Virus record (IMG/VR): IMGVR_UViG_3300023179_000012
DNA: 64,000 nucleotides
Source: a virus
Reading direction: 5' to 3' (one strand)
Position 1 is the first letter of the stretch. Every line of letters begins with the position of its first letter. Below the pieces are notes generated by a model. The model did not search any database. It saw only the letters and a program-made list of their open reading frames with translations, and was not told the origin of the DNA. Below are positions 11,585 through 29,452 of the stretch, piece after piece. The translations under genes and the position numbers were made by a program.

Positions 11585-12411
11585 ATTAAAATTCCTTATT
11601 GGGTGGAAAATCTTTTACCGAATACAATTCCACAGTCTCATTATAATCAAGACCCAAATATTGACTTAATTCAGTATCCACAAGAGAGTCCCAATATTCT
11701 TTAGGATCAGTACCATGTTCACTATTATAAGTAATCTTAAGTGTCACATAGGATGTTTTTAGCATTATTCAAACTCCTTGATTGATAGAATGTTTTCAGA
11801 ACCAAAGTCACCGAAGAATTCAGGATCAGTATATAGTTTATCATTTAAATATTCTGGAATATGACTATCCTTAATATCATCATCAATAACCAATTCCATA
11901 TTAATAGTAATAACCTTCATTCTTCTCCCCTTTGAATTCTATCAAGATAAATATTTGCCGTTCTAATATAAGCCTTAAGACTCTCAAGATACTGCTGATT
12001 ATTAGTATCCTGATAGAATCTCACTTGATCACCAATCTTATTGGCCACATAAAGAAGAGCCTCACTATTATTCATAGAATTTTTCCTTTCTGCAAAATCA
12101 CAAAGACCTTGGTTTTTCGCTGACTATCACTAAGACCGCCAAATCCGCAGGATTGAGTAAGACTTATATTAGATTTGAAAAATAGAAATACAGATTATAA
12201 TCCTATTATTCTATTATTATTCCTAAGTCCTTTAGCATCAACCACTTACGTTTCATTGTATCGTCTACTAGGTCGCTTGTCCATCACCATTTTTAAGAAT
12301 CTTCGACAAAGTTTCGTAACCCATTGTGGATATTGGACTTACGACAAAATTTCGCCGCCGGGTTTGTCATAAGTCCTTGTCTGACAAGCACTTACAACAA
12401 ATGGCGTGAGG

Positions 12412-12458
12412 GTGGAAACCGCCGTAGGTTATTCCCTCTTTCCCTACGGCGGCTCCAC
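12412..12458. terminator. GC-rich hairpin after the DUF932 gene (terminator or processing site)
   Basis: CCGCCGTAGG/CCTACGGCGG 10-bp stem; no clear U-tract. Confidence 0.45.
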
Positions 12459-12476
12459 TATCTCCACGAAAGAGCA

Positions 12477-13421
12477 TCAGATTGCGTTGGCAAACTCTAG
12501 AGCAGATTCCAACGCCTTATTATTATCATTGGCATTTTGACCGAACCACAAACTATCAAGGCGATTATCAGTGGTGCGACCCTTACCATAGTTCAGATAT
12601 TCATTGAACCCGTTATAGGCGGCCCACCAAGTACCGCGAACATTAGCCGCAGTCTGTTTCGGGCCTTCGATACGAGCCAGAATATCATCCATAATATTAC
12701 GGGTACGAGTCTTAATATCCTCGTCAGCACCCTTAATATTCAGGACAACCTTAACATACTTCTCAATATCCTTCTGGTTGAAACTCTTGCTAGCAAGGAA
12801 CCGATACTGTTCCGCAGTAGCCTCAAAACCAGCGTTAATATTATCCATAATATCGCGGACTTGTTCCAGATTCTTCTGGCTGGAGCGAGTGTGGCGAATA
12901 CGGATCAGTTTGCTATCATTATGCTTGTGAGCATACGACAGCGTGTTCACGCAGACCACGCGAATCGGAGTGTATCCGACACGAATAGCCGTTGTACCGT
13001 CGTGACTATTACTCAGCAGGATAAACTTGCTAACCTCATCACCCGGAACAATCTCGCTATTATCTCGGTTGAGTTGAGCAAGCACCCAGACCTTTTGACC
13101 GAGATGCAGCGATCCGGCAGTATGGATCGAACACTCGTTAGCGTCGAGGAAAGGCTGGAACCAATCAAACGCATCCTTATTCTGGAGCGGAGTATAACGA
13201 GGGCCGACAACGCCAAGGATGCTGCCATCGCTCTTGCGATAGGTCGCACGATGGTTCACAGGCGTACCGTCAACGGTCTGCAAATCCTTCAGACCTACTT
13301 CCCAATCCAGACCAGCAGCGACGATAGCATCATTCACATTGATACCCTCGTCAACGCTATTGCCAAGGCCATGCCAAGGCGTCTCACCAACAAACATCAT
13401 CTTTTCAACAGCAGCAGGCAT
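12477..13421 (-). CDS. DUF932/DUF945 family phage/plasmid-like protein (TIGR03299-like)
   Basis: MPAAVEKMMFVGETPWHGLG start; LLSNSHDGT; PIRVVCVNTL. Confidence 0.9.
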   Translation of the reverse strand: MPAAVEKMMFVGETPWHGLGNSVDEGINVNDAIVAAGLDWEVGLKDLQTVDGTPVNHRATYRKSDGSILGVVGPRYTPLQNKDAFDWFQPFLDANECSIHTAGSLHLGQKVWVLAQLNRDNSEIVPGDEVSKFILLSNSHDGTTAIRVGYTPIRVVCVNTLSYAHKHNDSKLIRIRHTRSSQKNLEQVRDIMDNINAGFEATAEQYRFLASKSFNQKDIEKYVKVVLNIKGADEDIKTRTRNIMDDILARIEGPKQTAANVRGTWWAAYNGFNEYLNYGKGRTTDNRLDSLWFGQNANDNNKALESALEFANAI

Positions 13422-13584
13422 AACTAACTCCTTCGTGTTTAACTTCTTCGTTCCGATGCACTGATTCTACCATCTAGTATCGTCTAGTCAAGCGGCAAAA
13501 CTTGTGAAAAAATTTTTTTGTTCTAAGTCATTGATTGGCAAGTACTTACGCTTCGGCCGCCGCCACCAACTGGACGTAAGTCCT

Positions 13585-14088
13585 TTAGTGATCTAGGTTT
13601 AGGAGCGGAACCCCGAGATCACGCTTGCAGAGTTTAGAACCATCCTCATCATTACGATAAGCACATTCGTTAGGCAGATAGCAATACACACCAACACAAT
13701 GAGAACACGAGTATTCATCCTTGATTACTTTTTTAATATGTTTTACGGTTCCACCAGAACAGATTAAATCGTCTAATATAATATATTGAAAAGGGGCCAC
13801 TCCCTCGGTACGAAACTCTGAATAGCATTGTTCCCCCTTTCTTACCACAACAATATTCTTGTTGAGTAACTCTGCGATTTGTGGAACCACCATCAATCCA
13901 CTTACACCGCAGCAGGCAATACTATCAAAGTCTTTGGCAATCTTTCGCAGATCACACACGGCCTTAATAATAATCTTATTTCTAGCCTTATGATTTAAAA
14001 CGTGACAGGTATGGCTAGCACCCTGAATATATTTTCCTTCTGTAGTTTTACGAACATCCTCAATCTGATTATTCAAAATATTGGTCAT
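13585..14088 (-). CDS. type I phosphoribosyltransferase
   Basis: PRPP-binding loop IILDDLICSGGT; upstream VVVRK. Confidence 0.85.
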   Translation of the reverse strand: MTNILNNQIEDVRKTTEGKYIQGASHTCHVLNHKARNKIIIKAVCDLRKIAKDFDSIACCGVSGLMVVPQIAELLNKNIVVVRKGEQCYSEFRTEGVAPFQYIILDDLICSGGTVKHIKKVIKDEYSCSHCVGVYCYLPNECAYRNDEDGSKLCKRDLGVPLLNLDH

Positions 14089-14093
14089 AAAAA

Positions 14094-14184
14094 CGATGGA
14101 CGGCCGGATTCGAACCGACTAAGAAAGGAAAGATAAAGCGATATGCTTATAATAGAATACTTGTCCCACCAAGTTGCATCCATC
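14094..14184 (-). ncRNA. tRNA-like RNA with 8-bp acceptor stem and canonical T arm but no anticodon arm
   Basis: GATGGATG/CGTCCATC, ACTTG/CAAGT D-like stem, GTCGG-TTCGAAT-CCGGC, G discriminator. Confidence 0.55.
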
Positions 14185-14197
14185 AGACGAGAAAGGG

Positions 14198-14365
14198 CTA
14201 TTCGTTATCTAGTTCATCCACTACATTATGATAATAGTGTTCGTACTCTTTTTCATCCTCAAAATCATCATAATCTGGTTCGTCAGAATAGTCAGCATAA
14301 TCATAGAGTTCTTCTGAATCTTCCACAATACGATCATAATCAAACTCATATTCATTTTCAAACAT
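14198..14365 (-). CDS. highly acidic small protein
   Basis: 25 of 55 residues D/E; start moved to MFENEY because the longer ORF overlaps tRNA-Lys. Confidence 0.6.
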   Translation of the reverse strand: MFENEYEFDYDRIVEDSEELYDYADYSDEPDYDDFEDEKEYEHYYHNVVDELDNE

Positions 14366-14416
14366 AGCCACTTTCTCCTTTTCCACTATCATACACCAAC
14401 GAACACGATTGTCAAG

Positions 14417-14487
14417 TAGGGGCCGAAGGTAACGCTCCTTCTTCAATAGATTAAAAGTCTATTGCATCACTTTAATGCTTGACCCCC
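14417..14487 (-). tRNA. tRNA-Lys(UUU), atypical T loop
   Basis: Cloverleaf; anticodon loop CTTTTAA; T loop AGCGTTA. Confidence 0.8.
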
Positions 14488-14591
14488 GCGAGGAAATCCA
14501 TTATACCAAGTATTATCGGTTTGTCAAGACCAAAAACTTGAATCTTTCGCTGACTATCGCCAAGACTGCAAATCCGAAGGATAGGGTAAAA

Positions 14592-14662
14592 CAAAGGCGG
14601 AGGGAATCGAACCCTCATCTACGGTTTTGGAGACCGTCATTCTACCGTTGAACTACGCCAAT
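14592..14662 (-). tRNA. tRNA-Trp(CCA), two acceptor-stem mismatches
   Basis: Loop CTCCAAA; T arm GAGGG-TTCGATT-CCCTC; acceptor ATTGGCG/CGCCTTT. Confidence 0.8.
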
Positions 14663-14813
14663 GTTCGTAACTCAGACCGTCAGCCTCCGGTTTGCTATCA
14701 TACTCTATTATCGACAAGAAGCAAGTGAATTCTTTAGTTTTTCTAAGTCTAATCGTACCAAGCACTTATAACTATATCGCGCCGCCATATTTTACCTAAG
14801 TCCTTTATCTATA

Positions 14814-14884
14814 AGCGGATAGAGAGAATCGAACTCTCGTCAACTGATTGGAAATCAGTGGCTCTACCATTGAGCTACATCCGC
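14814..14884 (-). tRNA. tRNA-Gly(UCC)
   Basis: Canonical cloverleaf; loop TTTCCAA. Confidence 0.95.
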
Positions 14885-14887
14885 AAA

Positions 14888-14974
14888 CGGAATCTGAGGG
14901 ATTCGAACCCCCGGAGGATTTTAACCCTCGGCGGTTTAGTAAACCGCTGCCTTAAACCACTCGGCCAAGATTCC
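14888..14974 (-). tRNA. tRNA-Ser(ACU)
   Basis: Long variable arm, GGA acceptor start, G73; loop TTACTAA. Confidence 0.9.
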
Positions 14975-14977
14975 AAA

Positions 14978-15049
14978 CTGGCTCGGTAGGACTCGAACCT
15001 ACAACCGGGCGGTTAACAGCCGCCAGCTCGACCATTGAGCTACGAGCCA
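14978..15049 (-). tRNA. tRNA-Asn(GUU)
   Basis: Canonical cloverleaf; loop CTGTTAA. Confidence 0.95.
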
Positions 15050-15052
15050 ATA

Positions 15053-15123
15053 TTCCGGGACTACGATTTGAACGTAGAATAAAGGATCCAAAGTCCTCTG
15101 TGATACCGTTTCACCATCCCGGA
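15053..15123 (-). tRNA. tRNA-Gln(UUG)
   Basis: Cloverleaf; loop CTTTGGA; T loop TTCAAAT. Confidence 0.9.
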
Positions 15124-15124
15124 G

Positions 15125-15196
15125 AGCCGACAGAGGGAATCGAACCCCCGACAGGTTGTTTACAAAACAACTACTCTACCACTGAGTTACGTCGGC
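15125..15196 (-). tRNA. tRNA-Thr(UGU)
   Basis: Canonical cloverleaf; loop TTTGTAA. Confidence 0.95.
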
Positions 15197-15198
15197 AA

Positions 15199-15399
15199 TC
15201 ATTCATTCATCCCTTTAAGGATTCCAACAATAACAGCCACTCCAAATAAAATACCCAAACCACCAGCACTAAAACACGCTGATACAATCATAAATCCAAG
15301 AACTATCATTACTAAAGTGCCACAACCATTATTATCTGATGGTGGTAATCGTCTGGCATCTCTACCAGCGTCTCGCCAAAGTCCATACGGGAAATACAT
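15199..15399 (-). CDS. small membrane protein
   Basis: Two hydrophobic segments. Confidence 0.55.
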   Translation of the reverse strand: MYFPYGLWRDAGRDARRLPPSDNNGCGTLVMIVLGFMIVSACFSAGGLGILFGVAVIVGILKGMNE

Positions 15400-15406
15400 A
15401 TTTCAC

Positions 15407-15595
15407 CTAAATATCATACTCGTTACGCCATAGTTTGTCAATAGCGTTTCGTGTACGGAGCCGCTTGGGCCTGTTGTCCATAGTTGTATCTCGGTATTCC
15501 TTGTGTCCCGTAGGCACTTCCCACGGTTTCTTGACCTTGATTTTGATAACTTTGCGGCGTCGTGGAATATCGTCGTTGTTCTGGAGCGTAATCAT
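15407..15595 (-). CDS. basic small protein, DNRPKRLRTR family copy 1
   Basis: WEx..GH and DNRPKRLRTR shared with 24177-24347. Confidence 0.7.
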   Translation of the reverse strand: MITLQNNDDIPRRRKVIKIKVKKPWEVPTGHKEYRDTTMDNRPKRLRTRNAIDKLWRNEYDI

Positions 15596-15794
15596 GCCAT
15601 TGTCCGTTTTCGTGAAGATAAAATACTTTGTCTACATTAGGATCGTAAGCCATTAAACAATATTGTATAGGATGCTTTACTGGCGTCAAATGCTTTTGTA
15701 TTATGGGTATTTTGATATCACCCTTTTGATAATCCTTTAATCCAGTATACGCTAGCCCTAAGACAGCAACCACTACGCCAATCCATTGTATCAT
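15438..15794 (-). CDS. membrane-anchored hypothetical protein
   Basis: N-terminal TM helix; its tail overlaps 15407-15595 in another frame. Confidence 0.5.
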   Translation of the reverse strand: MIQWIGVVVAVLGLAYTGLKDYQKGDIKIPIIQKHLTPVKHPIQYCLMAYDPNVDKVFYLHENGQWHDYAPEQRRYSTTPQSYQNQGQETVGSAYGTQGIPRYNYGQQAQAAPYTKRY

Positions 15795-15948
15795 ACCATT
15801 TCCTTTTGTCAATCGTCGCTTCATAGATAGTTTATCGACCACGACGAGAAAAAACTTTAATCGTTCCTAAGTCATTGATTTGCAAGTACTTAGGATTAGA
15901 TGGCCGGGCCGCCCTTGTCCTAAGTCGTTTAGGATCAAGGGGTTACGA

Positions 15949-16191
15949 TTATTCATTATCGTCGCGGCTTAGTTCCCATCCTGCGGCTCTCACAATACTT
16001 TTTGTAGAGATTACATTAGTTTTAGAATCAGCACTAATATAGTCTCTATATCCACGTTCATCAGCATAAAAATATTCATCAATAATATCAAACTTATTAG
16101 TCATTAGCAGTCCCGTGATACTAGCCTCAAGAGCATCCTTACGACTAATAACAACTTCAAGAGTATTACTCTTTACATAAAACTTAGGCAT
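15949..16191 (-). CDS. hypothetical protein
   Basis: Stop 2 nt from the 80-bp repeat. Confidence 0.6.
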   Translation of the reverse strand: MPKFYVKSNTLEVVISRKDALEASITGLLMTNKFDIIDEYFYADERGYRDYISADSKTNVISTKSIVRAAGWELSRDDNE

Positions 16192-16357
16192 GGTTCATCT
16201 CCGTTCCCAAATACTTCATATCCTCATCACAATCCGCACAAACCGGCGTACCAGTATCTTGATACCACCACGGCGTTACATTGATTTCATCCTCACAAGA
16301 AACACAACGCCAAACGTGACGGATTTTAGTATCATCAATAACTTGCCAGATTTCCAT
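16184..16357 (-). CDS. zinc-ribbon small protein (not in ORF track, 57 aa)
   Basis: Hand translation MEIWQVID..CVSC..CADC..; fills the gap in the operon. Confidence 0.65.
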   Translation of the reverse strand: MEIWQVIDDTKIRHVWRCVSCEDEINVTPWWYQDTGTPVCADCDEDMKYLGTEMNHA

Positions 16358-16365
16358 GATAACTC

Positions 16366-17070
16366 CTAGTGGGCAGGAAAGAGAACATTAGCCAGACCGC
16401 GAACACACAAGTCACACGATATACTATCCTTCGTGCCAGTGCAAGTAATAACAGACCGACCACGACGAATCTCGGGACAAGTTACAAACTTTGTGCCGTT
16501 CAGCACAACCAGTTTCGGCAAAGATTTACGCCAAGCCTCGGCCTTGATTTTGCTCTTGGGTCGCTTGGGTGCAATCTTCATATCGCTATCACACCATGCA
16601 AACTTTTTGAAACCTTGTGCAAGAGCCTCACCCATATCATTATCATCATGCACACTAGCATATACATTCATATACTTTTCCAGACTAACAAGCCGGGAAT
16701 CGTAGATATGAGTATAAAACCACATATCGGGCAGCGTGTCACCATCGGCAAGAATACTCTCACACGCCCACGTTACATTAGCAACATAGTCTAGGTCAAG
16801 TTCGCCATTGAGAAACCAGTCGCCACGCTCATGCCAGCGAATAGACTTTTTACGCTTTTTGGCGTCCAGAATCATAGCACGGATTTTGTTTTTCTCCGTG
16901 ACTACGTTAGCAAAACCAGCAACGCGAGCATTTTTATACTGATTCTCGGTAGCCTCGGCATAGCATCCATTATTGAGATAGTCACAGTCTGGAGGGCAAG
17001 TATCGCCAACCGGACGCGAAACCACAATGCAACCCTTACCCAACTTATCGTTACCGTCTGCTGTTTTCAT
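16366..17070 (-). CDS. GP88-like Cys-rich (radical-SAM-like Fe-S) protein
   Basis: TCPPDCDYLNNGCYA, IRWHERGDW, WFYTH, C-terminal CP..C..C..C. Confidence 0.6.
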   Translation of the reverse strand: MKTADGNDKLGKGCIVVSRPVGDTCPPDCDYLNNGCYAEATENQYKNARVAGFANVVTEKNKIRAMILDAKKRKKSIRWHERGDWFLNGELDLDYVANVTWACESILADGDTLPDMWFYTHIYDSRLVSLEKYMNVYASVHDDNDMGEALAQGFKKFAWCDSDMKIAPKRPKSKIKAEAWRKSLPKLVVLNGTKFVTCPEIRRGRSVITCTGTKDSISCDLCVRGLANVLFPAH

Positions 17071-17231
17071 GGCTTTCTCCCTTGGTCTACCGATTCTACA
17101 TTATAGTATCGGCACGGTCAAGCGAAAAACTGTGATAAAAATATTTTTGTTGTAAATCCTTGTGGCATCAGCACTTAGAGCAAAACCGGCCCTCCGAATT
17201 CGTCATAAGTCCTTATGCTTCAATAACTTAG

Positions 17232-17305
17232 CGAGAGCGACGGGACTCGAACCCGCAACCTCTAGCGTGACAGGCTAGCGATCTAACCGATTGATCTACG
17301 CTCCC
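17232..17305 (-). tRNA. tRNA-Asp(GUC)
   Basis: Canonical cloverleaf; loop CTGTCAC. Confidence 0.95.
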
Positions 17306-17676
17306 GAATTATAAATTATGATACCAGCATGTATTTCACTATGACAATTTTTACATACTAATATACATTTATCTAATTCTTTTTTTATTTTAGTTTCATT
17401 TTTAGAGAATGACGTATTCTTTATCTTACTTATATTAAAATCTTTTTTAGATGGATGAATATGATGAAAATCTAAAGATCCAATATATTTATTATATCCA
17501 CATATAATACAAGAACTACCCTTATATTCAACACATTTTGCCTTAAAGGCTCTCTGTCGATCTAGAGTATTCTGATGATTACACTTCCTACAATAACTTT
17601 GTATTTTCCCCTTACGATTACCAGATTTTACCTTATATGGTTTCTTTTCTATTTGACCACATTTTACGCATTTCAT
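17296..17676 (-). CDS. HNH endonuclease (putative homing endonuclease in tRNA cluster)
   Basis: CIICGY..LDFHHIHP..KCILVCKNCHSEIH; N-terminal CxxC..CxxC. Confidence 0.85.
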   Translation of the reverse strand: MKCVKCGQIEKKPYKVKSGNRKGKIQSYCRKCNHQNTLDRQRAFKAKCVEYKGSSCIICGYNKYIGSLDFHHIHPSKKDFNISKIKNTSFSKNETKIKKELDKCILVCKNCHSEIHAGIIIYNSGA

Positions 17677-17729
17677 ATTTTACCTCATGGATAGAATCTA
17701 AATATCTATCCATATTATACACCAATAAA

Positions 17730-17802
17730 TACTGCCGGAAGGATTTGCACCCTCGTGAGTCAACTTAGAAGGTTGATGCCTAATCTACTCGGCCACGGCA
17801 GC
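17730..17802 (-). tRNA. tRNA-Arg(UCU), atypical T loop
   Basis: Loop CTTCTAA; T loop TGCAAAT. Confidence 0.85.
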
Positions 17803-17866
17803 ATAAAACCGATAGCCGCCAGTTATTCACCAGCGGTCTATCGGATATTATAACATTATATTATGC

Positions 17867-18121
17867 TCAGGCAACAGCCTCGGCTTCCGATTCAACCTTG
17901 CCATTATGAGCATCCCCAGCCTGCTTCGCAGTCACACCAGTGACCCTAGCACGCCATACCTTATAACCCTGCTCGCTAAAAGCCTTGACTTCTCCAGCCT
18001 TGACGTTAGCATGAACGTCGCTGGGCAGAGCATCGGTCAGACAGGTGGAGATCGAATCCACCACAACCTCACGGTCAAGATCATCGGCAACAATATCAAC
18101 AACAAAAGAAAACTTCTTCAT
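17867..18121 (-). CDS. hypothetical protein
   Basis: Start set at MKKFSF, downstream of promoter 18254-18281. Confidence 0.6.
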   Translation of the reverse strand: MKKFSFVVDIVADDLDREVVVDSISTCLTDALPSDVHANVKAGEVKAFSEQGYKVWRARVTGVTAKQAGDAHNGKVESEAEAVA

Positions 18122-18394
18122 GGTAAAACCTTTCCAAGTAATAGTAGTAAACCCAACAAACACATTATACAAGAACCACAATCGCTTGTCAAGTTGCCAA
18201 TCCGAACTTTCTTAGTGTTGGGATCGGTTGGTCGCTTGTCTTGCGATGCTATCAGTATACCATTGTTATCGTCATTGTCAACAGCGGCTCGTGAATGTTT
18301 TTTTGCTTTTTTCCTAAATCATTGAACCATAAGCACTTACGTCAAAATCCCGCCGCCGTCCTTGCTCTAAGTCCTTTAGTAGCAAGGCTTTAAG

Positions 18395-18769
18395 TCAAGA
18401 GAGATAACCCTCACAACCCAAAGAGGTCAGATCACGCAGCAACCCTTCAGCCGCGTCGGGAGTCTTAGCGGTGAGAGTGATGGGATTACCACCACCAATC
18501 AAGAAGCCGCCAGCGTCCCACCGACCCACCATACCATCGGTCCAATCCTTCGATTCCTTGAGTCCCCAGCCGGTGTGCTGTCGAACAGCCTTGATGCAAG
18601 AGATACGGTTGTCCAAATCCATACCCTTGGTGATCGTAACCATTCGACGCTGGTTCACACCCAAGACCATCTCAAAAGCCTGCGTGATACGCTCTCTAAT
18701 ATCCTCCCTAGCATAGAAAGAAAGTTCCATAGCCTCACGAACACTCAGTTGCAGATTGATCATATTCAA
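18395..18769 (-). CDS. ribosomal protein bL12 (L7/L12) C-terminal domain-containing protein
   Basis: RISCIKAVRQHTGWGLKESKDWTD matches KIxVIKxVRxxTGLGLKEAKDLVE; PITL..AEGLLRDLTSLG follows. Confidence 0.8.
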   Translation of the reverse strand: MNMINLQLSVREAMELSFYAREDIRERITQAFEMVLGVNQRRMVTITKGMDLDNRISCIKAVRQHTGWGLKESKDWTDGMVGRWDAGGFLIGGGNPITLTAKTPDAAEGLLRDLTSLGCEGYLS

Positions 18770-19191
18770 ACCCTTTCTTCCAAAATGTAAACTTGTTTGC
18801 CGTTAGTTAATAGAGTAGCATACTCGCTACCGTCCCAAATGAATTCGTTATTGTCGCTTTCTCGTCGCCAGTGCGGATCACGAAGTGGATTATAAAACAA
18901 CTTCTCAAGATTGTCAACAGGCAGAGCGGGATAAAAATCCTTCCTCAACATAACTTCTTCACATCTTACCCACCCACTAACATCATGCACACCAGCCTCA
19001 AACACCTGTTTAGCCTTATTCGGCCTATTCCACAACTTACAACCCCGCATCTCTAACTGATATTTTTTGGGGTCAACGTAGTATACATCAACTGTTTCCC
19101 CACCCTGCTTAACCTTTATTTGCCAGTGCATATAATGCTGGCCATTACTCAGGTGAAATCGAACTTCGCCATGTAGTTTGTTCTGTTTCAT
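18766..19191 (-). CDS. conserved phage hypothetical protein
   Basis: VRFHL..YMHWQIK..DP..YQLEM..C.L.N pattern. Confidence 0.6.
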   Translation of the reverse strand: MKQNKLHGEVRFHLSNGQHYMHWQIKVKQGGETVDVYYVDPKKYQLEMRGCKLWNRPNKAKQVFEAGVHDVSGWVRCEEVMLRKDFYPALPVDNLEKLFYNPLRDPHWRRESDNNEFIWDGSEYATLLTNGKQVYILEERV

Positions 19192-19605
19192 GCTTATACT
19201 ATACCTTATCGACCAATCGTTGTCAAGACCTTTAAACTTTCGCTGACTACAGCCACTCTAGCCAAATCCGAAGGATTAGGAGAAACAAGGCTGGCTTCCG
19301 CCATACTCGACCAGCATTTCAGATAGCCTCTTTTGATATCATTGTGGCTATCCCCAAGCCTTGCTCCCTAAGTCTACCAGTATTATCGGCGTTTGTCAAA
19401 TGGATTCTTTAAAAAATCCTAAGTCGTTACTGGATAAGCACTTAGATCAAATTCGCGGCCGCGGCCTCGTCGTAAGTCCTTTAATACCAATCACTTAGGT
19501 GCCACCAACCACAAGTACCACACCAGTACCACCACACACCATACTTATCTAGCCTATATGCCATATCATTGTTTTCACCACACACACAAATATCACTAAG
19601 AGTTT

Positions 19606-19860
19606 TCATGTTGGATAATCCTCTGGATAATCTGTTGCTGGTCGCTCTGGTTTTGGTTGACCCTCGTATGGCATCCACCACGGAGCATCCATACGATCCA
19701 CAAGACCGGGACTTTCTTCACAAATAAGAATATGCGGACTCACAGGATCATCACGATGAATCTCATACCGTCCACGCCACACACCAATATCTGGCCCAAA
19801 GTAGTAAACCTTCTGGCCGTTGATAGGGCGACGATAACCAAAAAAACTAAGCCATTCCAT
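19606..19860 (-). CDS. hypothetical protein
   Basis: Packed minus-strand ORF. Confidence 0.55.
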   Translation of the reverse strand: MEWLSFFGYRRPINGQKVYYFGPDIGVWRGRYEIHRDDPVSPHILICEESPGLVDRMDAPWWMPYEGQPKPERPATDYPEDYPT

Positions 19861-19863
19861 TAT

Positions 19864-20542: not shown

Positions 20543-21133
20543 ATGTTCTCTCCTTTGGTTGTATTCTACTATCTAGTATCGGCTCTGTCAATAGGGAAAC
20601 TTGAAGAGATTTTGCTTACCATAAAGCGTTTTTGCGTAAGCACTTGCGTCAAAGCCGCGGCCTCCACCTCTCCGTAAGTCCTTACGGGACAAGGCTTTAT
20701 AAAAACCAGCGAATCTTTTACGCCCCGATTCTATTACCCATATGGCAACCCTGTTACGGACCATAGGAAACCGCCCACGGAAACCTTCCTAAGATTGGTC
20801 ATGACTCAATCTATCTGGCTCTTGGGGACGGTTACTGGTTGTGTTGCTTCGCAACTTATATTGTGTGGTATTCTTGTGTGTACTAAAAAATACCCAAAAA
20901 ACCTATACTGGGAAACGGCTATCCAGTACTTGCCGACGATTTTTAACTTTTCATTGACAGAATCAGTAAAACTGTATGTTGGTCGTGGTGAGGACGCGAT
21001 CCCCCATAGATTGGTACTTCTATCCAACGTATAACCCCGTTGGCAACTCCCCCAGTCTTTCAGAGAAAGTTTATCGAAATAGGTTATCCCAATCTAGTCC
21101 TAGGCATGGACCCACGAAAGTTTGTATTGTCAA

Positions 21134-21232
21134 GGGCGAAGGATGGAATCGAACCACCTCTAAGCATTTGGTTGCCTACTCCACCAGTTTGGTGTCTCGG
21201 ACTTCTCGTGCTACCATTACACTACATTCGCC
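21134..21232 (-). ncRNA. tRNA-like RNA (D and T arms intact, expanded irregular anticodon region)
   Basis: TA-GTGT-AATGGTA-GCAC D arm; GGTGG-TTCGATT-CCATC T arm; GGCGAA/TTCGCC acceptor pairing. Confidence 0.55.
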
Positions 21233-21238
21233 ATATTT

Positions 21239-21364
21239 TAGGGACGGATGGATTCGTTGATGCTTTGGCGTCACAGGCAACTGCCTCAGCCCGCGCTCTC
21301 AACTTGACCATCTACTTCACTGCCGTTTTACCGGGAAGTTGCTCACGCAACCTAGCAGTCCCTA
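21239..21364 (-). ncRNA. putative structured ncRNA module
   Basis: Closing stem TAGGGAC/GTCCCTA; internal GTTGC-GTGA-GCAAC, GATGG/CCATC, GTTGA/TCAAC, AGGC/GCCT; just downstream of promoter 21396. Confidence 0.5.
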
Positions 21365-21544
21365 TTGTATTGTCAATGATCGGCTGAACTCTTGTATTCT
21401 ACAGTCTATTATCGACCTGTCAATAGGGTTTTCTTGAAAAAATATTTTTTAACGTAAGATATTGAGAAGCAAGCACTTACGACGATCCCGGCCCGGCGAG
21501 TTTGCCCTAAGTCCTCTTGTGCTAAGAACTTAGAGCGAACCCTT

Positions 21545-21727
21545 TTAGTAGTCGGCCTCAATAGGCTCATCACACCTATAGTTAGAATCTATCAAAACTT
21601 CTGGACGAAACTTGCTCAGTTTCTCGTCTCTGCAATCCACACAAACCCGTGCCAGCGGAATACCCCTAGCATCGCTCTCCCACCAACTATTCTTTTGAGA
21701 TCCACACGGACAATACTTTGTTATCAT
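21545..21727 (-). CDS. small zinc-binding hypothetical protein
   Basis: CPC...CVDC. Confidence 0.6.
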   Translation of the reverse strand: MITKYCPCGSQKNSWWESDARGIPLARVCVDCRDEKLSKFRPEVLIDSNYRCDEPIEADY

Positions 21728-22206
21728 GCTTGTACCTCGTCATCAGAAAAAAAGTTTTCCATGTCGAACTCATTCCATAAAGCAACAGGAATCATATCCT
21801 TACTCTTATACTCAATATAGTTGTCAACTCCATTATCATAGAGTCCACAAAAAGACATACCCGGCTCGAAATAGGATGCTTTTACATTGTATCCCAAATC
21901 TACCAGTTCGTTATACAGTCCAATAGGAGGACTCCAAGCAGAGTCAAAAGAACAACTAGCCTGATTACCAACAACAGTAGCCTTCAAGCCGTGCCATTCT
22001 TCTCGTTCCGTACCCTCGTCAGCCCCAATATCCCACTTTACTCCCCAGTTATTCACACAAAAATCCCACCAACCATCGCCAATATCTGCGGGCATAGGAA
22101 TAAACTCGTTACACACAGTTCCCTTGTTGTATGTTTTCACAAATCGGTCGAGCATAGAGGGATCGGAGTGTTCAACGGTCAACTTGTTCAAGCACCAGTT
22201 AGGCAT
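21724..22206 (-). CDS. DUF1281/YubB (Api92-like) ferredoxin-fold protein
   Basis: MPNWC.N; NWGVKWD; FDSAWSPP; YFEPGMSFCG. Confidence 0.75.
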   Translation of the reverse strand: MPNWCLNKLTVEHSDPSMLDRFVKTYNKGTVCNEFIPMPADIGDGWWDFCVNNWGVKWDIGADEGTEREEWHGLKATVVGNQASCSFDSAWSPPIGLYNELVDLGYNVKASYFEPGMSFCGLYDNGVDNYIEYKSKDMIPVALWNEFDMENFFSDDEVQA

Positions 22207-22213
22207 ATTATCC

Positions 22214-22447
22214 TCAGTTAGTAGTAGTGGTCAAAGCAGAATACTTACCATCACGCCTAGCAGCCTCAAGAGCATCACAGAAAAAATCACTAAAATCTTC
22301 CATAACGCTCAAAGCATCTTCTCTAGTACCATCCAGAATAGCATCAGTAAATACTATCACAAAATCAGCAACCCGCTCACGAACCATCACAATCTCTTTT
22401 TTGCTCAACATCTCTCTCCCCTTTTCAATCTTTATACCAAAACCCAA
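22214..22447 (-). CDS. hypothetical protein
   Basis: Minus-strand ORF after tRNA-Glu. Confidence 0.45.
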   Translation of the reverse strand: MGFGIKIEKGREMLSKKEIVMVRERVADFVIVFTDAILDGTREDALSVMEDFSDFFCDALEAARRDGKYSALTTTTN

Positions 22448-22458
22448 TCCGTTGTCAA

Positions 22459-22531
22459 TAGCCCCACGGAGGATCGAACTCCGATCTCCGGGATGAAAGC
22501 CCGGTATACTAAACCATTATACTATGGGGCC
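22459..22531 (-). tRNA. tRNA-Glu(UUC)
   Basis: Cloverleaf; loop CTTTCAT. Confidence 0.9.
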
Positions 22532-22828
22532 GAGACTCGCTCAATCCAAATATAGTCACCATATTTAGCCTGTGCTTTTTTCATAGCATCAAACTCGCTC
22601 AAAGCGACAATGTAGCCAGCAAACTTATTGTTTGCAAATACACGCCAAGTATAACCAGCATAGCAGTTAGCAGTAGTCATAGCGTTATTCTAATCTATTA
22701 TCGGCACTTGTCAAGAGAAGTCTTTAGTTTTTCTAAGTTGTTGCAGTATAAGGACTTACAACAAATCCGGCCCCGCAGCCATGCCCTAAGTCCTTGTTTA
22801 ACAAAGACTTAGAGCAACTGGCCGAGAA

Positions 22829-23239
22829 TCAGAACAGAAGACTAGCAAGGCCGGTTTTGAACGCGACCCCACCAAGGAGGGGACGACGCACATTGCGTGT
22901 ACGCTCCGCGTAGAAGTTGCGAATCTTACCGTCCGGAGTTTGAGCAGTCACAAGATGACGGCTACGCTCAAAGTTCGGATCATTTCTACGATACCTACTT
23001 TTACTATTCAGTCGAGCAAGATAATCGTCAGAAAATCGGTGAACACCAATAACCCTAGCCATAAAACGTTCAGGATCACCAGTAACAGGCTGCACATATT
23101 CAAAGTTATAAACACCACCAACCCTAGCATTTGTCAGACTATCACGAAGACCACTATACAGATGGAAAACGCTAAAAGCCACAATGCCAGAAACCGCACC
23201 AACAACCGCACACAAACCAATCAGAACTTCGTTAGTCAT
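22829..23239 (-). CDS. membrane-anchored protein, possible WYL-like domain
   Basis: N-terminal TM; YNFEY...DGKIRNFYAERTRNV resembles the WYL RxFxxDRI end. Confidence 0.45.
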   Translation of the reverse strand: MTNEVLIGLCAVVGAVSGIVAFSVFHLYSGLRDSLTNARVGGVYNFEYVQPVTGDPERFMARVIGVHRFSDDYLARLNSKSRYRRNDPNFERSRHLVTAQTPDGKIRNFYAERTRNVRRPLLGGVAFKTGLASLLF

Positions 23240-23331
23240 CAGACACCCTTTCGTTGTGAAAATCAAACACCTAGTACGCACATTCTACAGTATTATCGTC
23301 GTGTGTCAAGCCCAAACTTTAGAGATTTTGG

Positions 23332-23637
23332 TCACTCGCCATCATCATAATAGCCGTAACCATCATCACTATGAAAATCCTCACAACAGTCTACATCTTC
23401 GCCAAAATAACCGTAATCCTCATCGGTTCCCCATCCAGCGGAAGACAATGCACTCTCAGTATCGCCATCCATACTATCATCATACGAATCATCCCAACTG
23501 TTCTCCAACTCCTCGCCATCAATCTCGCCGTAAAAATCATTGTAATCGTCATAGTTCGACGCATCAACATCATCAGCGTAGTTCATATCATCCTCATAAG
23601 AGTTATCGGGATCGAACAGGGGGTCAGGATGGCTCAT
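23332..23637 (-). CDS. extremely acidic protein (PDPL family copy 1)
   Basis: 37 of 101 residues D/E, no K or R; start set below promoter 23664. Confidence 0.7.
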   Translation of the reverse strand: MSHPDPLFDPDNSYEDDMNYADDVDASNYDDYNDFYGEIDGEELENSWDDSYDDSMDGDTESALSSAGWGTDEDYGYFGEDVDCCEDFHSDDGYGYYDDGE

Positions 23638-23802
23638 CTTAGGTTTCTCCGTTGTGTGATCCGATTCTATATCTATTATCGACGTTGTCAAGTGTAGAAC
23701 TTTAAAAATATCTTTTTTGTTCTAAATCCTTATATAGCAAGTACTTACGATTCGCCCGGCGGCGCCACTCTAACGTAAGTCCTTATTTTCCAAAGAGTTA
23801 GA

Positions 23803-24093
23803 TTATTTGAGAATATATTCTATTTCTTGTCCATTCGCAATCATAGCAGCATATATCTCAATACGCTTATCTTTCTCCCGTTTCTCAATCTGATGGTCGG
23901 TTTCTGTTACATCACGAGAATCGCACTTTCGCTCAAGATCAGCCAGGGTAACACCATCGGTACGATGGTCACGAAAATCCTCCGGCAACCACGAGTTAGG
24001 CACCACCACAATATCCCGCACAACTCGCTCAAACTCAGCAATCAGTTCATAACCGTTCATTTTCTTCTCCTTGGTTGTGAGGCAGTCTATCAA
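23803..24093 (-). CDS. hypothetical protein
   Basis: Stop 1 nt from repeat; true start is probably MNGYEL. Confidence 0.6.
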   Translation of the reverse strand: MIDCLTTKEKKMNGYELIAEFERVVRDIVVVPNSWLPEDFRDHRTDGVTLADLERKCDSRDVTETDHQIEKREKDKRIEIYAAMIANGQEIEYILK

Positions 24094-24176
24094 AATCTTT
24101 TTGGCTTGTCAACAGCAAAATCCCACTTTTTCGCTGACTACAGCCACACTGACCAAATCCGTAGGATTGGCTGAGA

Positions 24177-24347
24177 CTAATCGAAATCTCTCATAGCCTG
24201 TCGCTTCTGGTCACTGCGAGTGCGAAGTCGCTTGGGTCGGTTGTCGTGCTGACCAGATCCAGACATATGGCTAGAATGACCCTTACCCATCTCCCACACT
24301 GGACGAATGTTCAGCCGAATCGCGTCGTATTTCTTTCGCTTGCTCAT
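24177..24347 (-). CDS. basic small protein, DNRPKRLRTR family copy 2 (not in ORF track, 56 aa)
   Basis: Hand translation MSKRKKYD..WEMGKGH..DNRPKRLRTR.. Confidence 0.7.
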   Translation of the reverse strand: MSKRKKYDAIRLNIRPVWEMGKGHSSHMSGSGQHDNRPKRLRTRSDQKRQAMRDFD

Positions 24348-24751
24348 ACTCGTATCCTACCATATATTATCGGCTAGTCAATAGAGAATCTTTATTTTTC
24401 TAAGTCTTTGATACACAAGTACTTACGAAAAAATCGCCGCGCCCGGCTCGACGTAAGTCCTTGCCGGGGTTAGAGTTACGAGTTAACCACCCATGCGGCA
24501 GCACACCCAACAACAAAACTTATTACAAATACGCAAATATCCAAAACTTTCATTCTTTTCCCCTTATAGGATAAACCAAATCACGAACACTATAACTAGC
24601 AAACACACCGATAATAAATCCCACACCGATTTGTACCCAGTTAATATCGGCCATCCCTAGCCCCTTTCTTAAATGTTTTTCCCGTACTCAATAATAGCAC
24701 ACATTACTCCTGCAAAAATAATCAGGAATAGCATACTAATAAAATAACCCA

Positions 24752-25060
24752 TCACGATACCACCATCCCATCAATAAAAGGGTATTCCTTACCATTAATC
24801 TTAACATACCAAGTAAAATCCCTCTGGTAAACCCGTACCGGGCTATACTGGTTAATCCTATCCTTAGTGGTAACAGTTTGCCAACCCCCACTATTAAGGG
24901 TATAGGTGCCATCATCCCGAATCTTTACAACGTATGTACTGTGCAACTTAATAGCCACAGTATTATCGCTCAGGATTTCCGCATAGGTATTATTACCAAT
25001 CTTTCGGCTATCCTTATTCCGCTTGCCACGAACCATCTTAATCGCTTCGGCGTGTGTCAT
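24752..25060 (-). CDS. conserved phage hypothetical protein
   Basis: KIGNNT...LH.T.V...TLNSGGWQTVTTKDRINQY pattern. Confidence 0.7.
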   Translation of the reverse strand: MTHAEAIKMVRGKRNKDSRKIGNNTYAEILSDNTVAIKLHSTYVVKIRDDGTYTLNSGGWQTVTTKDRINQYSPVRVYQRDFTWYVKINGKEYPFIDGMVVS

Positions 25061-25241
25061 TTTCTTTTCTCCTTACTTCTATTATCGGTATTTTACAGGC
25101 TAAACTTGAGAAAGTCAAGAAAATAATCCTGTGCCAAATGCGAATATTTTTTAGAATGTCCTAAGTCCTTATGGGGCAAGTACTTACGCAAAAATCGCCA
25201 CGGCCCCCGCGTCATAAGTCTTTACGCGGAAAGGCTTTATG

Positions 25242-25750: not shown

Positions 25751-26042
25751 ATCGTTTCTCCGTTGGGGTGATGCGATGATTCTACAGTTATTATCGACAA
25801 ATGCAAGCCCACACCTTGAGAATAATCCTATGCCAAACTAAAAATATTTTCTGACACGGTATTTTCTTGGATCATTTTCTCTAAGTGCTTGTGCAGAAAG
25901 GACTTAGGAAAAATCCGGCCCGGCGTCCTCGCCGTAAGTCTTTACGGATCAAGGACTTGCGTCATTATTTAGATAACACGCAATAACATAGGCCAACATA
26001 ACTAATAATAAATGTAAGTGCAGCAAGCATTATAATATTCCT

Positions 26043-26231: not shown

Positions 26232-26245
26232 TATACTATAACCTT

Positions 26246-26446: not shown

Positions 26447-26680
26447 TCTACCCTTTCTTTCTCTCTTCTATTATCGACATTATACAGGCGATTCTTTAGG
26501 TTGCAAGCAAAATCTTTGGATTTTTGTGTCAAGATTTTTTGACAAAACTTTTCTGTTTTTCGGTATGGTTTGGCATACCGTTTGCTGATGCGATTTTCCC
26601 TAAGTCGTTACGCTGTAAGTACTTACGTCAAATTCGCTGCGCCCATATCGTCGTAAGTCCTTACGCCGTATGGGTTTGCG

Positions 26681-26866
26681 TCAACTCTGTCCCGGATAGA
26701 TTCTTCCGCTCTTGAGTCGCTGTACAAGCGTATCGTAATCGTCAGTCGTGAACAGCGTATAATAAGCATCCCGCTCCTGCACGATCCACTTGCGAGTGTA
26801 TCCGTTCCACACACTAGCCACGACCACACCGAGAGAGTTAGCCAGAGATACGATTTCAGCATTCAT
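26681..26866 (-). CDS. hypothetical protein
   Basis: Stop 1 nt from repeat; start MNAEIV. Confidence 0.55.
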   Translation of the reverse strand: MNAEIVSLANSLGVVVASVWNGYTRKWIVQERDAYYTLFTTDDYDTLVQRLKSGRIYPGQS

Positions 26867-26868
26867 TT

Positions 26869-27084
26869 TCAAGATACTCCCATCCAAGATGCTTTTTCCA
26901 CACAGTAATCATAGAATATATCGTTCAAAACTTCAAGATGGTTTTTTTCGGTCAAACGACGACGAGCAAGGATAGCATCGCACTCTGCGAAAAACTTACC
27001 CGTGGACACTTCATATACAATCGTACACGCATACGATTCGCTTCCCCAAATCCTAGCCTTAACATCAACGAACTTCTTCAACAT
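26869..27084 (-). CDS. hypothetical protein
   Basis: Minus-strand ORF in unit. Confidence 0.55.
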   Translation of the reverse strand: MLKKFVDVKARIWGSESYACTIVYEVSTGKFFAECDAILARRRLTEKNHLEVLNDIFYDYCVEKASWMGVS

Positions 27085-27323
27085 CTGTTTTCTCCTCTTC
27101 TCTCTTCTATTATCGACATTCTATCAGACTTTCTTCAACATTTCAAGAGGGCAAAAAAGATTTTTGTAGCAGCAAATATCGTGCCAATCATAAGTCGTTG
27201 TCTGATAAGCACTTAGGCACAAGTCGTGCCGCCGAGTTCGACGCAAGTCCTTACGCCACAAGGATTTACGTCGAATTGTTGTACAGTAGTGTACAGGCTT
27301 ATATCCCCATAATAGGGGGCTTA

Positions 27324-27647
27324 TTACCCCTCCCACCCAAAGGGGGATACTTCCTCACCGCAAGCCTGAATAGCGGCATACTGTTCGATTAGAGCCTCTA
27401 CACGTTCACGCGATCCAGGTTTGCCAACCTTCACGATCATGGTATCCTCACCACCAACCATGCGAGAATCTACCTTCTCGCTCTTGCTCTTGCCGATATT
27501 CTTCAATGCGGTGCGATTGAACTTCAGCACCTTTTCGCTGCGAATCGTTCCACCATCTGCGTTAGTTTTGTCGCAAGGGATAGCGATACCAACGAAGCAC
27601 ATACGGGCAACTCGCTCAGCATCACGAACAATCTTAGGCTTTTTCAT
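27324..27647 (-). CDS. hypothetical protein
   Basis: Purine-rich leader, plausible composition. Confidence 0.6.
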   Translation of the reverse strand: MKKPKIVRDAERVARMCFVGIAIPCDKTNADGGTIRSEKVLKFNRTALKNIGKSKSEKVDSRMVGGEDTMIVKVGKPGSRERVEALIEQYAAIQACGEEVSPFGWEG

Positions 27648-27707
27648 TTTCTTTCTTTCTCCTTTGGATGATGGATCGTACTAAACTTTTCCCTGTGACG
27701 CAACCCC

Positions 27708-27956
27708 TCAAATGAGGGACGCTTCGCGCTCCTTGCGAAACTTGATGGCGTACAGTTCGTCCACAACAACGCGAACCACGGTATCCATGCTGACACTCTT
27801 GTGGGTATAGTATCCACAATGGATAGCGAACAGGCTATACGTACCGGGAACACCGGATGGTATCGACCCCACACTGTGGGGGTGAAGGGTAAAACCCGCA
27901 TTGTAAGCGTAACGGCGAATACTCTTGCGAATCGTTTCAATTTTTGGGATTCTCAT
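27708..27956 (-). CDS. hypothetical protein
   Basis: Start MRIPKI after a GA-rich leader. Confidence 0.5.
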   Translation of the reverse strand: MRIPKIETIRKSIRRYAYNAGFTLHPHSVGSIPSGVPGTYSLFAIHCGYYTHKSVSMDTVVRVVVDELYAIKFRKEREASLI

Positions 27957-28024
27957 CTCTATCTCTCTTTCTCTTTCCAGTATTATACCAAACTTTTTCG
28001 ACAGCACAACCCCCACAACGGGGG

Positions 28025-28201
28025 TCACCATCCGTTTCTCCGACACTCATCGGCCCAATCCCGATCCTCTTGACGGGTACGATCATTATACCCGTATCCA
28101 CCATAGGTAAGGTAGTTATCCTTCATGGCATCGTATCCATCATCCGAATCGTGAACATCGTCAAAATCTTCGTAATCGTACAGGGGGTCAGGGCAACTCA
28201 T
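28025..28201 (-). CDS. acidic small protein (PDPL family copy 2; not in ORF track, 58 aa)
   Basis: Hand translation MSCPDPLYDYEDFDD..; N-terminus resembles MSHPDPLFD of 23332-23637. Confidence 0.65.
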   Translation of the reverse strand: MSCPDPLYDYEDFDDVHDSDDGYDAMKDNYLTYGGYGYNDRTRQEDRDWADECRRNGW

Positions 28202-28652
28202 TTTTCACTCTCTCTTTCTTACCTCTATATAGTGCATGTTCTGTGCCAAAAGTCGAAAAATATTTTTGTGCGACTTTCTCGACGATTTCCGCAGGCTGTC
28301 ACCTTGGCACTATGTCATATTGGCAAAGTCTGCCATTTTTGGCTGCCGTATTGTTTGGCACGATATCTGCTGTGGTCATTTGATCTAAGTCGTTATGCCA
28401 CAAGTACTTACGTCGAATCCGCGGCCGCGAATTTTTCGTAAGTCCTTACGCCGTAAGGGTTTGCATCAAGTCGTTGTACAGTAGTGTACAGGCGTACACC
28501 CCACTACAGTGGGGATGCACAAGCGTACACTGAGCCGAATGGTACGTTATGCTGATTAGCATATACTGAACGAGCATCCGCCCAATCCTTAGCAAGTACC
28601 ATGCCAAGGTAGAAATCATTTTCCGAATTGTAGATATAGTAGGTTTTCATGA

Positions 28653-28802
28653 TTAGGAGATCAGTTCCATATCCTCATTGTAGCACTCGTACTCATCTCC
28701 GTCAATCTCTACGTGCCACACATCACCCTCATCGAAATGCCAGCGAATGATTCGACCAATCTTTCCGTCAACCTTCACCTTATCACCAAGAGCAAACTGC
28801 AT
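28653..28802 (-). CDS. small SH3-like protein (not in ORF track, 49 aa)
   Basis: Hand translation MQFALGDKVKVDGKIGRI..W.VE.. Confidence 0.6.
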   Translation of the reverse strand: MQFALGDKVKVDGKIGRIIRWHFDEGDVWHVEIDGDEYECYNEDMELIS

Positions 28803-28864
28803 TTTCTTTCTCCTTACTTCTTATATCGGTATTCTATCAAATATTTTTTAGATTATCTACCCCC

Positions 28865-29089
28865 TTATCGGGGGATCGTAATCAGATCACCAAAATGTGA
28901 GAACGTCAACTTGAGAACCCTATTCGGATATTTCTCATCGATATACTTCTGTGCAGTGCTTTTCCGATTATCGGTAGCACTCACACCCTGTACAACTGTA
29001 CCGTTCTCATCAATCACCTTCCAAACCTTCTTTTGAACGATACGCGGAAGGCTTTGGATGAAATCGTTGATATGAGTAACCTTTTCCAT
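28865..29089 (-). CDS. hypothetical protein
   Basis: Start MEKVTH below promoter TTGCAA-N16-TATAAT. Confidence 0.55.
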   Translation of the reverse strand: MEKVTHINDFIQSLPRIVQKKVWKVIDENGTVVQGVSATDNRKSTAQKYIDEKYPNRVLKLTFSHFGDLITIPR

Positions 29090-29452
29090 TTTTCTTTCTC
29101 TCTTTCTTTCTTCTCTTTTCTCTTGTGCTTTCATTATACAGTATATATCGGCCATTGCAAGCGAAATCTTTTGAAAAAATAAAAAATAATTCTGTGCCAA
29201 ATCAAAAAAACTTTTTGGTATACCGTTTGCTCTCTCGATTTCTTCTAAACCCTTATACCACAAGCACTTACACGCTCTTCGGCGTGACAAACAAGACGTA
29301 AGTCCTTATAATATCAGCACTTAGAGAGAGGGGGTTTTTCTGTTTCTTCTCCAGTCTCAAAACCTCTGACCCTAAACCCGCGGTGGTCCAAACATAGTAA
29401 GCAAACCATATATAATTGGCCAGTTTAATGACAAGTTTCCCCATTATTAAAT

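What the first reader, a model, noticed from the sequence alone, without database searches (positions are those of the whole stretch)
12316..29324. Eighteen copies of a fixed-geometry 80-bp four-armed DNA element partition the early region
Seen: every copy is arm(10)-N7-inverted arm(10)-N26-arm(10)-N7-inverted arm(10), with spacer lengths invariant in all 18. Inner arms are best conserved, the N26 linker has a GC-rich core, and all copies share one orientation. The arms show no consistent covariation, which favours dsDNA protein-binding sites over RNA stems. The two palindromes are 53 bp apart centre to centre (about 5 helical turns). Established: inverted arms around a 6-8 bp asymmetric spacer is the architecture of tyrosine-recombinase crossover sites (lambda att core, dif, loxP), and also of dimeric repressor operators. 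Inference: a phage-borne cassette-shuffling or master-regulatory system. No recombinase is visible in this window.
Basis: partly seen in the sequence, partly recalled or inferred. Interest (0 to 1): 0.9.

Follow-up and report, generated by a model that had tools for sequence, protein, structure and literature searches.

The report
Paired DNA-bending sites before phage promoters
An uncultured freshwater phage and over 100 relatives put the same rigid 80-base pair of palindromes a whole number of DNA turns upstream of 15-25 strong promoters; the palindromes most likely bind a host DNA-bending protein (IHF type), and they also act now and then as crossover points where whole gene units are gained or lost.

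Summary
Observation confirmed: 18 co-oriented copies with fixed 10-7-10-26-10-7-10 geometry, plus two lone halves. The same element occurs about 490 times in 117 IMG/VR loci, in one cluster per genome. No base-pair covariation, so it is a dsDNA site. Each half (TAA-N4-TT-N7-AA-N4-TTA) is a symmetric form of the IHF site: the TT/AA kink steps 9 bp apart and the TTR clamp on both sides, but no WAT. Its matrix ranks lambda H1 first in attP. The near half sits at -67, -78, -89, -99 or -111 from a sigma70-type start (period about 10.8 bp). No phage IHF/HU was found. The single palindrome is enriched in Planctomycetota (41 vs 8 control), not in Pseudomonadota (3 vs 4), and Planctomycetota carry IhfB-type but no IhfA-type protein, which would explain the symmetry. 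A tyrosine-recombinase system is unlikely: spacers differ, a recombinase is in 1 of 32 relatives, gene order is collinear. But chimeric copies show whole units lost or gained through crossovers at varied positions, as for T4 PeSLs. Binding protein, host and effect on transcription are inferred. The scan noted this element before in at least five other genomes, with similar readings; the IhfB and chimera evidence was not found there.

The parts
29245..29324 (-). four-arm element, first of the array
28385..28464 (-). four-arm element
27190..27269 (-). four-arm element
26600..26679 (-). four-arm element
25881..25960 (-). four-arm element
25161..25240 (-). four-arm element
24400..24479 (-). four-arm element; promoter -35 at 24381, near-half centre about -66
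23722..23801 (-). four-arm element; promoter -35 at 23691, centre -78
22733..22812 (-). four-arm element; promoter -35 at 22714, centre -66
21454..21533 (-). four-arm element; promoter -35 at 21423, centre -78
20621..20700 (-). four-arm element; promoter -35 at 20591, centre -78
19419..19498 (-). four-arm element; promoter -35 at 19399, centre -68; overlaps the upstream stop codon
18314..18393 (-). four-arm element; promoter -35 at 18281, centre -80
17152..17231 (-). four-arm element abutting the 3' end of tRNA-Asp; promoter -35 at 17121, centre -79
15867..15946 (-). four-arm element
14743..14822 (-). four-arm element overlapping the 3' end of tRNA-Gly by 9 nt
13523..13602 (-). four-arm element; promoter -35 at 13491, centre -79; overlaps the upstream stop codon
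12316..12395 (-). four-arm element, last of the array, after the DUF932 gene
12223..12249 (.). lone 27-bp half element
10725..10751 (.). lone 27-bp half element
29216..29230 (+). sigma54-type -24/-12 box pointing back into element 29245
28356..28370 (+). near-consensus sigma54-type box pointing back into element 28385
27172..27186 (-). sigma54-type box, sense, directly after element 27190
26571..26585 (+). sigma54-type box pointing back into element 26600
29516..29776 (-). small three-helix HTH gene heading the array (weak D5-like/GcrA-like); candidate regulator, probably not the element's binder

Best explanation
Each element is a pair of symmetric binding sites for a host DNA-bending protein of the IHF/HU (DNABII) family, probably a homodimer of an IhfB-type subunit. 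Two dimers bind in phase 53 bp apart, each covering about 35-37 bp and leaving the GC-rich core exposed between them. Two U-turns in the same direction fold the 80 bp into roughly one tight loop at a fixed face of the helix relative to the next sigma70-type promoter, where it boosts or shields that promoter. As a side effect, the shared sequence lets general recombination add, drop or swap whole promoter-plus-gene units. Shown: geometry, conservation pattern, phasing, absence of a phage DNABII gene, chimeric copies. Inferred: the binding protein, the bend, the host, and the effect on transcription.
For: The invariant columns are TAA, TT, AA and TTA. They map onto the AR-N4-TTR part of the IHF consensus (89-95% of arms), and IHF kinks DNA at a TT and an AA step 9 bp apart (PMC8421141; bioRxiv 2025.09.08.674847). 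Lambda H' shows TT-7-AA in register, and the arm matrix ranks lambda H1 first among about 980 attP positions. The central T of TTR, critical for IHF (bioRxiv 382655), is about 100% conserved. Near-half centre to start peaks at -67, -78, -89, -99, -111, -132; R=0.56 at 10.75 bp on 101 unique gene-family/distance combinations, jitter null maximum 0.37. No PF00216 gene in 20 relatives. The single palindrome is enriched and mostly intergenic in Planctomycetota (41 vs 8 control in 150 genomes) but not in Pseudomonadota (3 vs 4). 13 of 14 Planctomycetota carry the IhfB E-x-R motif and none an IhfA K-x-S motif among the top hits; that motif sets IHF's site discrimination (bioRxiv 057489). The 53-bp geometry recurs with an AT-rich linker in a 62-kb phage with neither candidate phage regulator and in an Ignavibacteria chromosome before a sigma70-type promoter. 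Chimeric copies.
Against: The WAT part of the E. coli consensus is at background and only 1-6% of arms match the full consensus. The middle four bases of each arm are more conserved (GGAC-like) than E. coli IHF needs. The host is not identified (no CRISPR match), so the Planctomycetota link is circumstantial, and only two phyla were compared. Only the top 2-3 DNABII hits per genome were read. The conserved GC core and the promoter spacer box (80% of element-linked promoters vs 29% of others) are not explained by IHF and point to a further factor. The double geometry is not native to Planctomycetota chromosomes. No binding or expression data.
Confidence: 0.66

Rival explanations
1. The palindromes are operators for a phage-encoded dimeric regulator (the HTH at 29516 or the HTH/coiled-coil protein at 30580) that loops DNA between the two halves and turns the early promoters up or off.
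For: Both genes flank the array and are conserved in all six close genomes. Phasing fits any looping activator or repressor. The double geometry is almost confined to phages.
Against: Phages with the same arms have no detectable small HTH and only a 35%-identical 30580 homologue, or neither. The half site is native to bacterial chromosomes. Conservation of spaced TT/AA steps over 25 bp looks like minor-groove shape readout, not an HTH half-site. The sites do not overlap the promoter core.
Confidence: 0.14
2. The palindromes bind a host sequence-specific protein outside the DNABII family, with the same upstream architectural or activating role.
For: Half sites are intergenic in Planctomycetota chromosomes; WAT is missing and the arm middles are conserved.
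Against: Exact match to the IHF kink geometry and TTR, and top rank of lambda H1; phylum pattern follows IhfB-only genomes.
Confidence: 0.1
3. The halves are tyrosine-recombinase crossover sites and the array is a site-specific cassette-shuffling system, using a host or undetected enzyme.
For: Inverted arms around 7 bp. Whole units are lost or gained with chimeric elements, and 4 of 10 mapped crossover intervals touch the promoter-side spacer. One relative encodes a divergent tyrosine recombinase.
Against: Spacers are not shared among copies of a genome (0.1% of pairs at least 12/14 alike), whereas these enzymes normally need matching overlap sequences (established knowledge). Recombinase in 1 of 32 relatives, about 115 kb from the array; no serine resolvase in 5. 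Crossovers at 50-52 and 58-61 exclude both spacers, and one unit was lost with different crossover points. Order collinear. Helical phasing to promoters is not predicted.
Confidence: 0.05
4. The element works as RNA or extruded DNA structure (terminator, processing site, attC-like hairpin), as PeSL stem-loops do.
For: Sits at unit ends: the upstream stop lies within 30 bp or inside the element in 61% of cases. Some copies fold well (z to -4.8).
Against: No covariation in 298 copies; folds differ between copies and several are no better than shuffles; terminator-like sites at chance level (13 vs 12.6); rigid loop and linker lengths.
Confidence: 0.05

Closest known systems
IHF sites and IHF-assisted promoters (lambda attP H1/H'; lambda pL; ilvPG; gltBDF, PMC1784095)
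   Same: TT and AA steps 9 bp apart, AR-N4-TTR arm, about 35-bp span, position about -65 to -110 upstream of a sigma70 promoter, face-of-helix dependence.
   Different: Symmetric (TTR on both sides, no WAT, no A-tract); two sites in phase at a fixed 53 bp around a GC core; repeated 15-25 times; binder not shown.
PeSL cassettes of T4-type phages (Arbiol 2010, PMC2839356; Comeau 2014, PMC4122927)
   Same: Repeated intergenic modules in a variable small-gene region, linked to strong sigma70 promoters, leaving chimeric copies when a unit is lost or gained.
   Different: No conserved stem-loop or terminator; the conserved part is a rigid pair of dsDNA protein sites upstream of the promoter; unrelated phage group; minicircles not shown.
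Tyrosine-recombinase core sites (lambda att, dif, loxP) and integron attC
   Same: Inverted arms around a 7-bp spacer; co-oriented repeats between genes.
   Different: Spacers do not match, no co-inherited recombinase, no hairpin covariation, fixed length, crossovers not confined to the spacer.
Borrelia Hbb (single-subunit DNABII protein; PMC2811001)
   Same: Precedent for a one-subunit IHF-like protein that kinks DNA at two symmetric steps and binds promoter regions.
   Different: Its consensus could not be read here (paper not held), so no direct comparison.

Membership tests
IHF binding site | AR-N4-TTR consensus part | tested here: met
   89-95% of each of the four arms
IHF binding site | TT and AA kink steps 9 bp apart | tested here: met
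   TT-N7-AA nearly invariant; same register as lambda H'
IHF binding site | WATC upstream of AR (full E. coli consensus) | tested here: not met
   WAT at background; full consensus in 1-6% of arms. Not an E. coli-type site; a symmetric variant
IHF binding site | bound and bent by a DNABII protein | not testable with these tools
   needs EMSA, footprint, bending assay
IHF-assisted promoter | site in helical register with a promoter | tested here: met
   period 10.75 bp, R 0.56, null max 0.37
Tyrosine-recombinase crossover site | inverted arms around a 6-8 bp spacer | tested here: met
Tyrosine-recombinase crossover site | matching spacers between partner sites | tested here: not met
Tyrosine-recombinase crossover site | cognate recombinase travelling with the sites | tested here: not met
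   1 of 32 relatives; a very divergent or host enzyme is not excluded
Tyrosine-recombinase crossover site | exchange confined to the spacer | tested here: not met
   intervals 50-52 and 58-61 exclude both spacers; identity decays gradually across the element; only 10 events mapped
PeSL | repeated module in a variable region linked to a sigma70 promoter | tested here: met
PeSL | stem-loop with terminator function | tested here: not met
PeSL | chimeric copies marking unit loss or gain | tested here: met
   in relatives; no clean case for the window's own copies
PeSL | excised minicircles | tested here: inconclusive
   only assembled contigs were available; joints came from co-occurring relatives
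Integron attC | covarying single-strand hairpin of variable length, with an integron integrase | tested here: not met

The most novel reading that the evidence does not exclude
The element is a phage-evolved DNA-shape module: two host IhfB-type homodimers fold 80 bp into one phased loop that presents the GC core to RNA polymerase or to a further factor acting with the promoter spacer box, making a new class of phage early promoter; at the first few copies, antisense sigma54 boxes overlapping the near site add a switch or a sigma54 trap; and selection keeps the copies partly as exchange points for gene units.
Probability: 0.25. Interest if true: 0.8.

Novelty: new variant of a known kind. Interest (0 to 1): 0.55.

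Why it matters
If right, hundreds of natural copies give a binding matrix for IHF-like proteins outside Proteobacteria, where specificity is poorly known, and predict that IhfB-only homodimers read symmetric sites. A fixed in-phase pair of U-turns upstream of many promoters is a testable natural design for how DNA bending controls transcription. It also extends PeSL-type unit exchange to a module with no stem-loop, and gives a sequence clue to the host of an abundant uncultured freshwater phage group.

Tried and rejected
Rfam: only tRNAs. No whole genome held for the window; complete relatives were used instead. Literature search by motif gave only primer matches; two searches for symmetric or phased IHF sites in phage early promoters found nothing on this element. 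No cultured relative: best capsid hit Bacillus phage G, 23%; no DNA match. Four-arm hits in GTDB are nearly all small or phage-like contigs in unrelated bins, so they give no host. CRISPR-type search of 401 Planctomycetota with 20 kb gave only low-complexity hits. A phage peptidase hit 1 of 151 Planctomycetota and 0 of 151 Pseudomonadota: too weak. The second PF00589 hit was an ATP-grasp-like protein of a sugar cluster; the sigma54-activator hit is RuvB, no GAFTGA. Laid contigs: identical contigs cross the elements; joints at 88% likeness reflect relatives; RNA contigs cross several elements but no silent control was laid, so no claim on read-through. Folds of the two HTH proteins gave no significant match. 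Lambda pL region gave no consensus IHF match with my patterns, so no direct distance comparison. BLAST block ends are not enriched inside elements (6-9% vs 6.7%) but just upstream of them; the flank test shows only modest excess (23% vs 13-18%), so the elements are not strong hotspots.
Full report
Setting. The window is part of a large tailed phage: terminase, portal and capsid genes start at 32084 on the plus strand, and small genes and nine tRNAs run on the minus strand. Near-identical DNA occurs in freshwater metagenomes. No whole genome is held, so I used related IMG/VR contigs of up to 244 kb, whose capsid proteins are 83-88% identical in the six read in full.

Observation. A matrix finds exactly 18 copies, all co-oriented, with a gap of over 50 bits to anything else, plus two lone halves. 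A pattern scan of IMG/VR returned 117 loci with 493 copies; scored freely, the arm gaps are 7 and 26 and the halves 53 bp apart in almost all cases. In four complete relatives all 15-17 copies lie in one ~18-kb block that starts after the small HTH gene and ends after DUF932; one relative has 25.

Anatomy. Read in the direction of transcription, each copy follows a stop codon or tRNA end (61% within 30 bp or overlapping) and precedes a near-consensus sigma70 promoter. The invariant columns are TAA, TT, AA and TTA in each half, with weaker TTGAC/GTCAA flanks and a GC core at positions 35-45. In 298 non-redundant copies there is no pairing covariation for either palindrome or the inner hairpin; only neighbouring bases covary. 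Folds differ from copy to copy and terminators are at chance level. So it is read as double-stranded DNA.

What binds it. The E. coli IHF consensus is WATCAR-N4-TTR; IHF kinks DNA at a TT and an AA step 9 bp apart and covers 35 bp (PMC8421141; bioRxiv 382655; bioRxiv 2025.09.08.674847). Each half is that geometry made symmetric: AR-N4-TTR holds in 89-95% of arms, WAT is at background, and the arm matrix ranks the lambda H1 site first in attP while H' aligns in register. Two 35-37 bp footprints 53 bp apart would leave just the GC core free (inference). The phages encode no DNABII protein. The single palindrome occurs 41 times against 8 for the reversed control in 150 Planctomycetota genomes, mostly intergenic beside varied genes, but 3 against 4 in 150 Pseudomonadota. 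In 13 of 14 Planctomycetota the top DNABII hits include an IhfB-type E-x-R motif and none has the IhfA motif; these residues set IHF's site discrimination (bioRxiv 057489). A homodimer of such a subunit would clamp TTR on both sides, which is the pattern seen. This is inference: the host is not identified and only two phyla were compared.

Link to promoters. The centre of the promoter-side half lies at -67, -78, -89, -99, -111 or -132 from the predicted start. After collapsing to 101 unique gene-family/distance combinations the period is 10.75 bp (R 0.56; jitter null maximum 0.37). Element-linked promoters carry a spacer box near -23 in 80% of cases against 29% for other promoters of the array. 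Face-of-helix dependence is typical of IHF-assisted promoters (PMC1784095), and IHF can pin loops and buffer supercoiling in simulations (PMC9519438). Whether the element activates, shields or insulates cannot be told from sequence. Sigma54-type boxes, mostly pointing back into the element 36-46 bp from the near centre, occur only at the first six copies of each array (45 of 90, none later); no phage sigma54 activator was found.

Recombination. Against a site-specific system: spacers are 17 and 18 distinct of 18 here; copies within a genome are no more alike than random pairs (49.8 vs 49.3 of 80) while positional orthologues are (59.7); a tyrosine recombinase occurs in 1 of 32 relatives and a serine resolvase in 0 of 5; gene order across 13 arrays is collinear (median tau 0.98, minimum 0.87) and genes come and go inside units. 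Yet exchange does pass through the elements. Some relatives have one chimeric copy where another has two adjacent copies and the unit between them. The left half tracks the upstream gene and the right half the downstream promoter, with a gradual change across the element. Mapped intervals include 50-52 and 58-61, outside both spacers, and 60-68, 67-70, 50-67 and 69-82, which touch the promoter-side spacer; one unit was lost with different crossover points. That fits general recombination at conserved patches, as for PeSLs (PMC2839356); a relative encodes RuvB and, by my reading of the sequence, a RecA-like protein. The excess over control positions is modest (23% vs 13-18%). Laid contigs could not test circles.

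Rival binders. The HTH at 29516 and the protein at 30580 are conserved in close relatives, but phages with the same arms lack the first and have a 35% homologue of the second, and a 62-kb phage with one copy of the same geometry has neither. The geometry also occurs once in an Ignavibacteria chromosome before a sigma70-type promoter.

Comparison and novelty. It works like an IHF-assisted promoter module and, in genome evolution, like a PeSL, but it is a member of neither as defined: it lacks WAT and it lacks the stem-loop terminator. I found no paper on it. I noted the IHF reading and the phasing before consulting earlier scan notes; these report the same element in at least five other genomes with IHF or PeSL readings. 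They are unchecked AI notes and add no support. Verdict: real, new variant of a known kind, mechanism probable but untested.

Noticed in passing
window 10080, 12102, 14531, 19225, 24116 (also partial 10010, 23116), minus strand: A second ~60-nt repeat family (AATCCT-N-CGGATT followed by TAGTCAGCGAA); three copies lie directly before near-consensus promoters that lack the four-arm element. Possibly another promoter-upstream module or small hairpin.
   Followed up: partly
window promoters at 13491-25118, minus strand: Conserved spacer box (CGATAATA) at about -23, between -35 and -10, strongly linked to element-bearing promoters (80% vs 29%). Could be the site of the small HTH (weak GcrA resemblance) or of a host factor.
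   Followed up: partly
window 26571-29230 and the first six elements of each related array: Sigma54-type boxes, mostly antisense and sometimes as facing pairs 34 bp apart (G008, G010), with no phage activator found; possible antisense promoters or sigma54 trap.
   Followed up: partly
window 1170, 2161, 2553, minus strand: Three copies of a 46-nt intergenic repeat outside the array.
   Followed up: no
L118:1255-2112: Divergent 285-aa tyrosine recombinase in one relative only, next to a tail-fibre-like gene.
   Followed up: partly
L140:4106-5107: Actin homologue of the volactin family (PF25216, E 2e-65), conserved in the four complete relatives compared.
   Followed up: no
window 18395-18769: Conserved small gene with a ribosomal L7/L12 C-terminal domain match.
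   Followed up: no
gene family 30, e.g. L044 and G002/G003/G010 arrays: A 150-200 aa gene that appears at several positions of the array, often as its own unit between two elements; the clearest case of unit gain or loss.
   Followed up: partly
L180:3956-4033: The same double-palindrome geometry, AT-rich, upstream of a sigma70-type promoter in a Melioribacteraceae chromosome.
   Followed up: no
window 40403-44560: 1385-aa collagen-repeat protein with further 54-nt repeats, probably a tail or capsid fibre.
   Followed up: no
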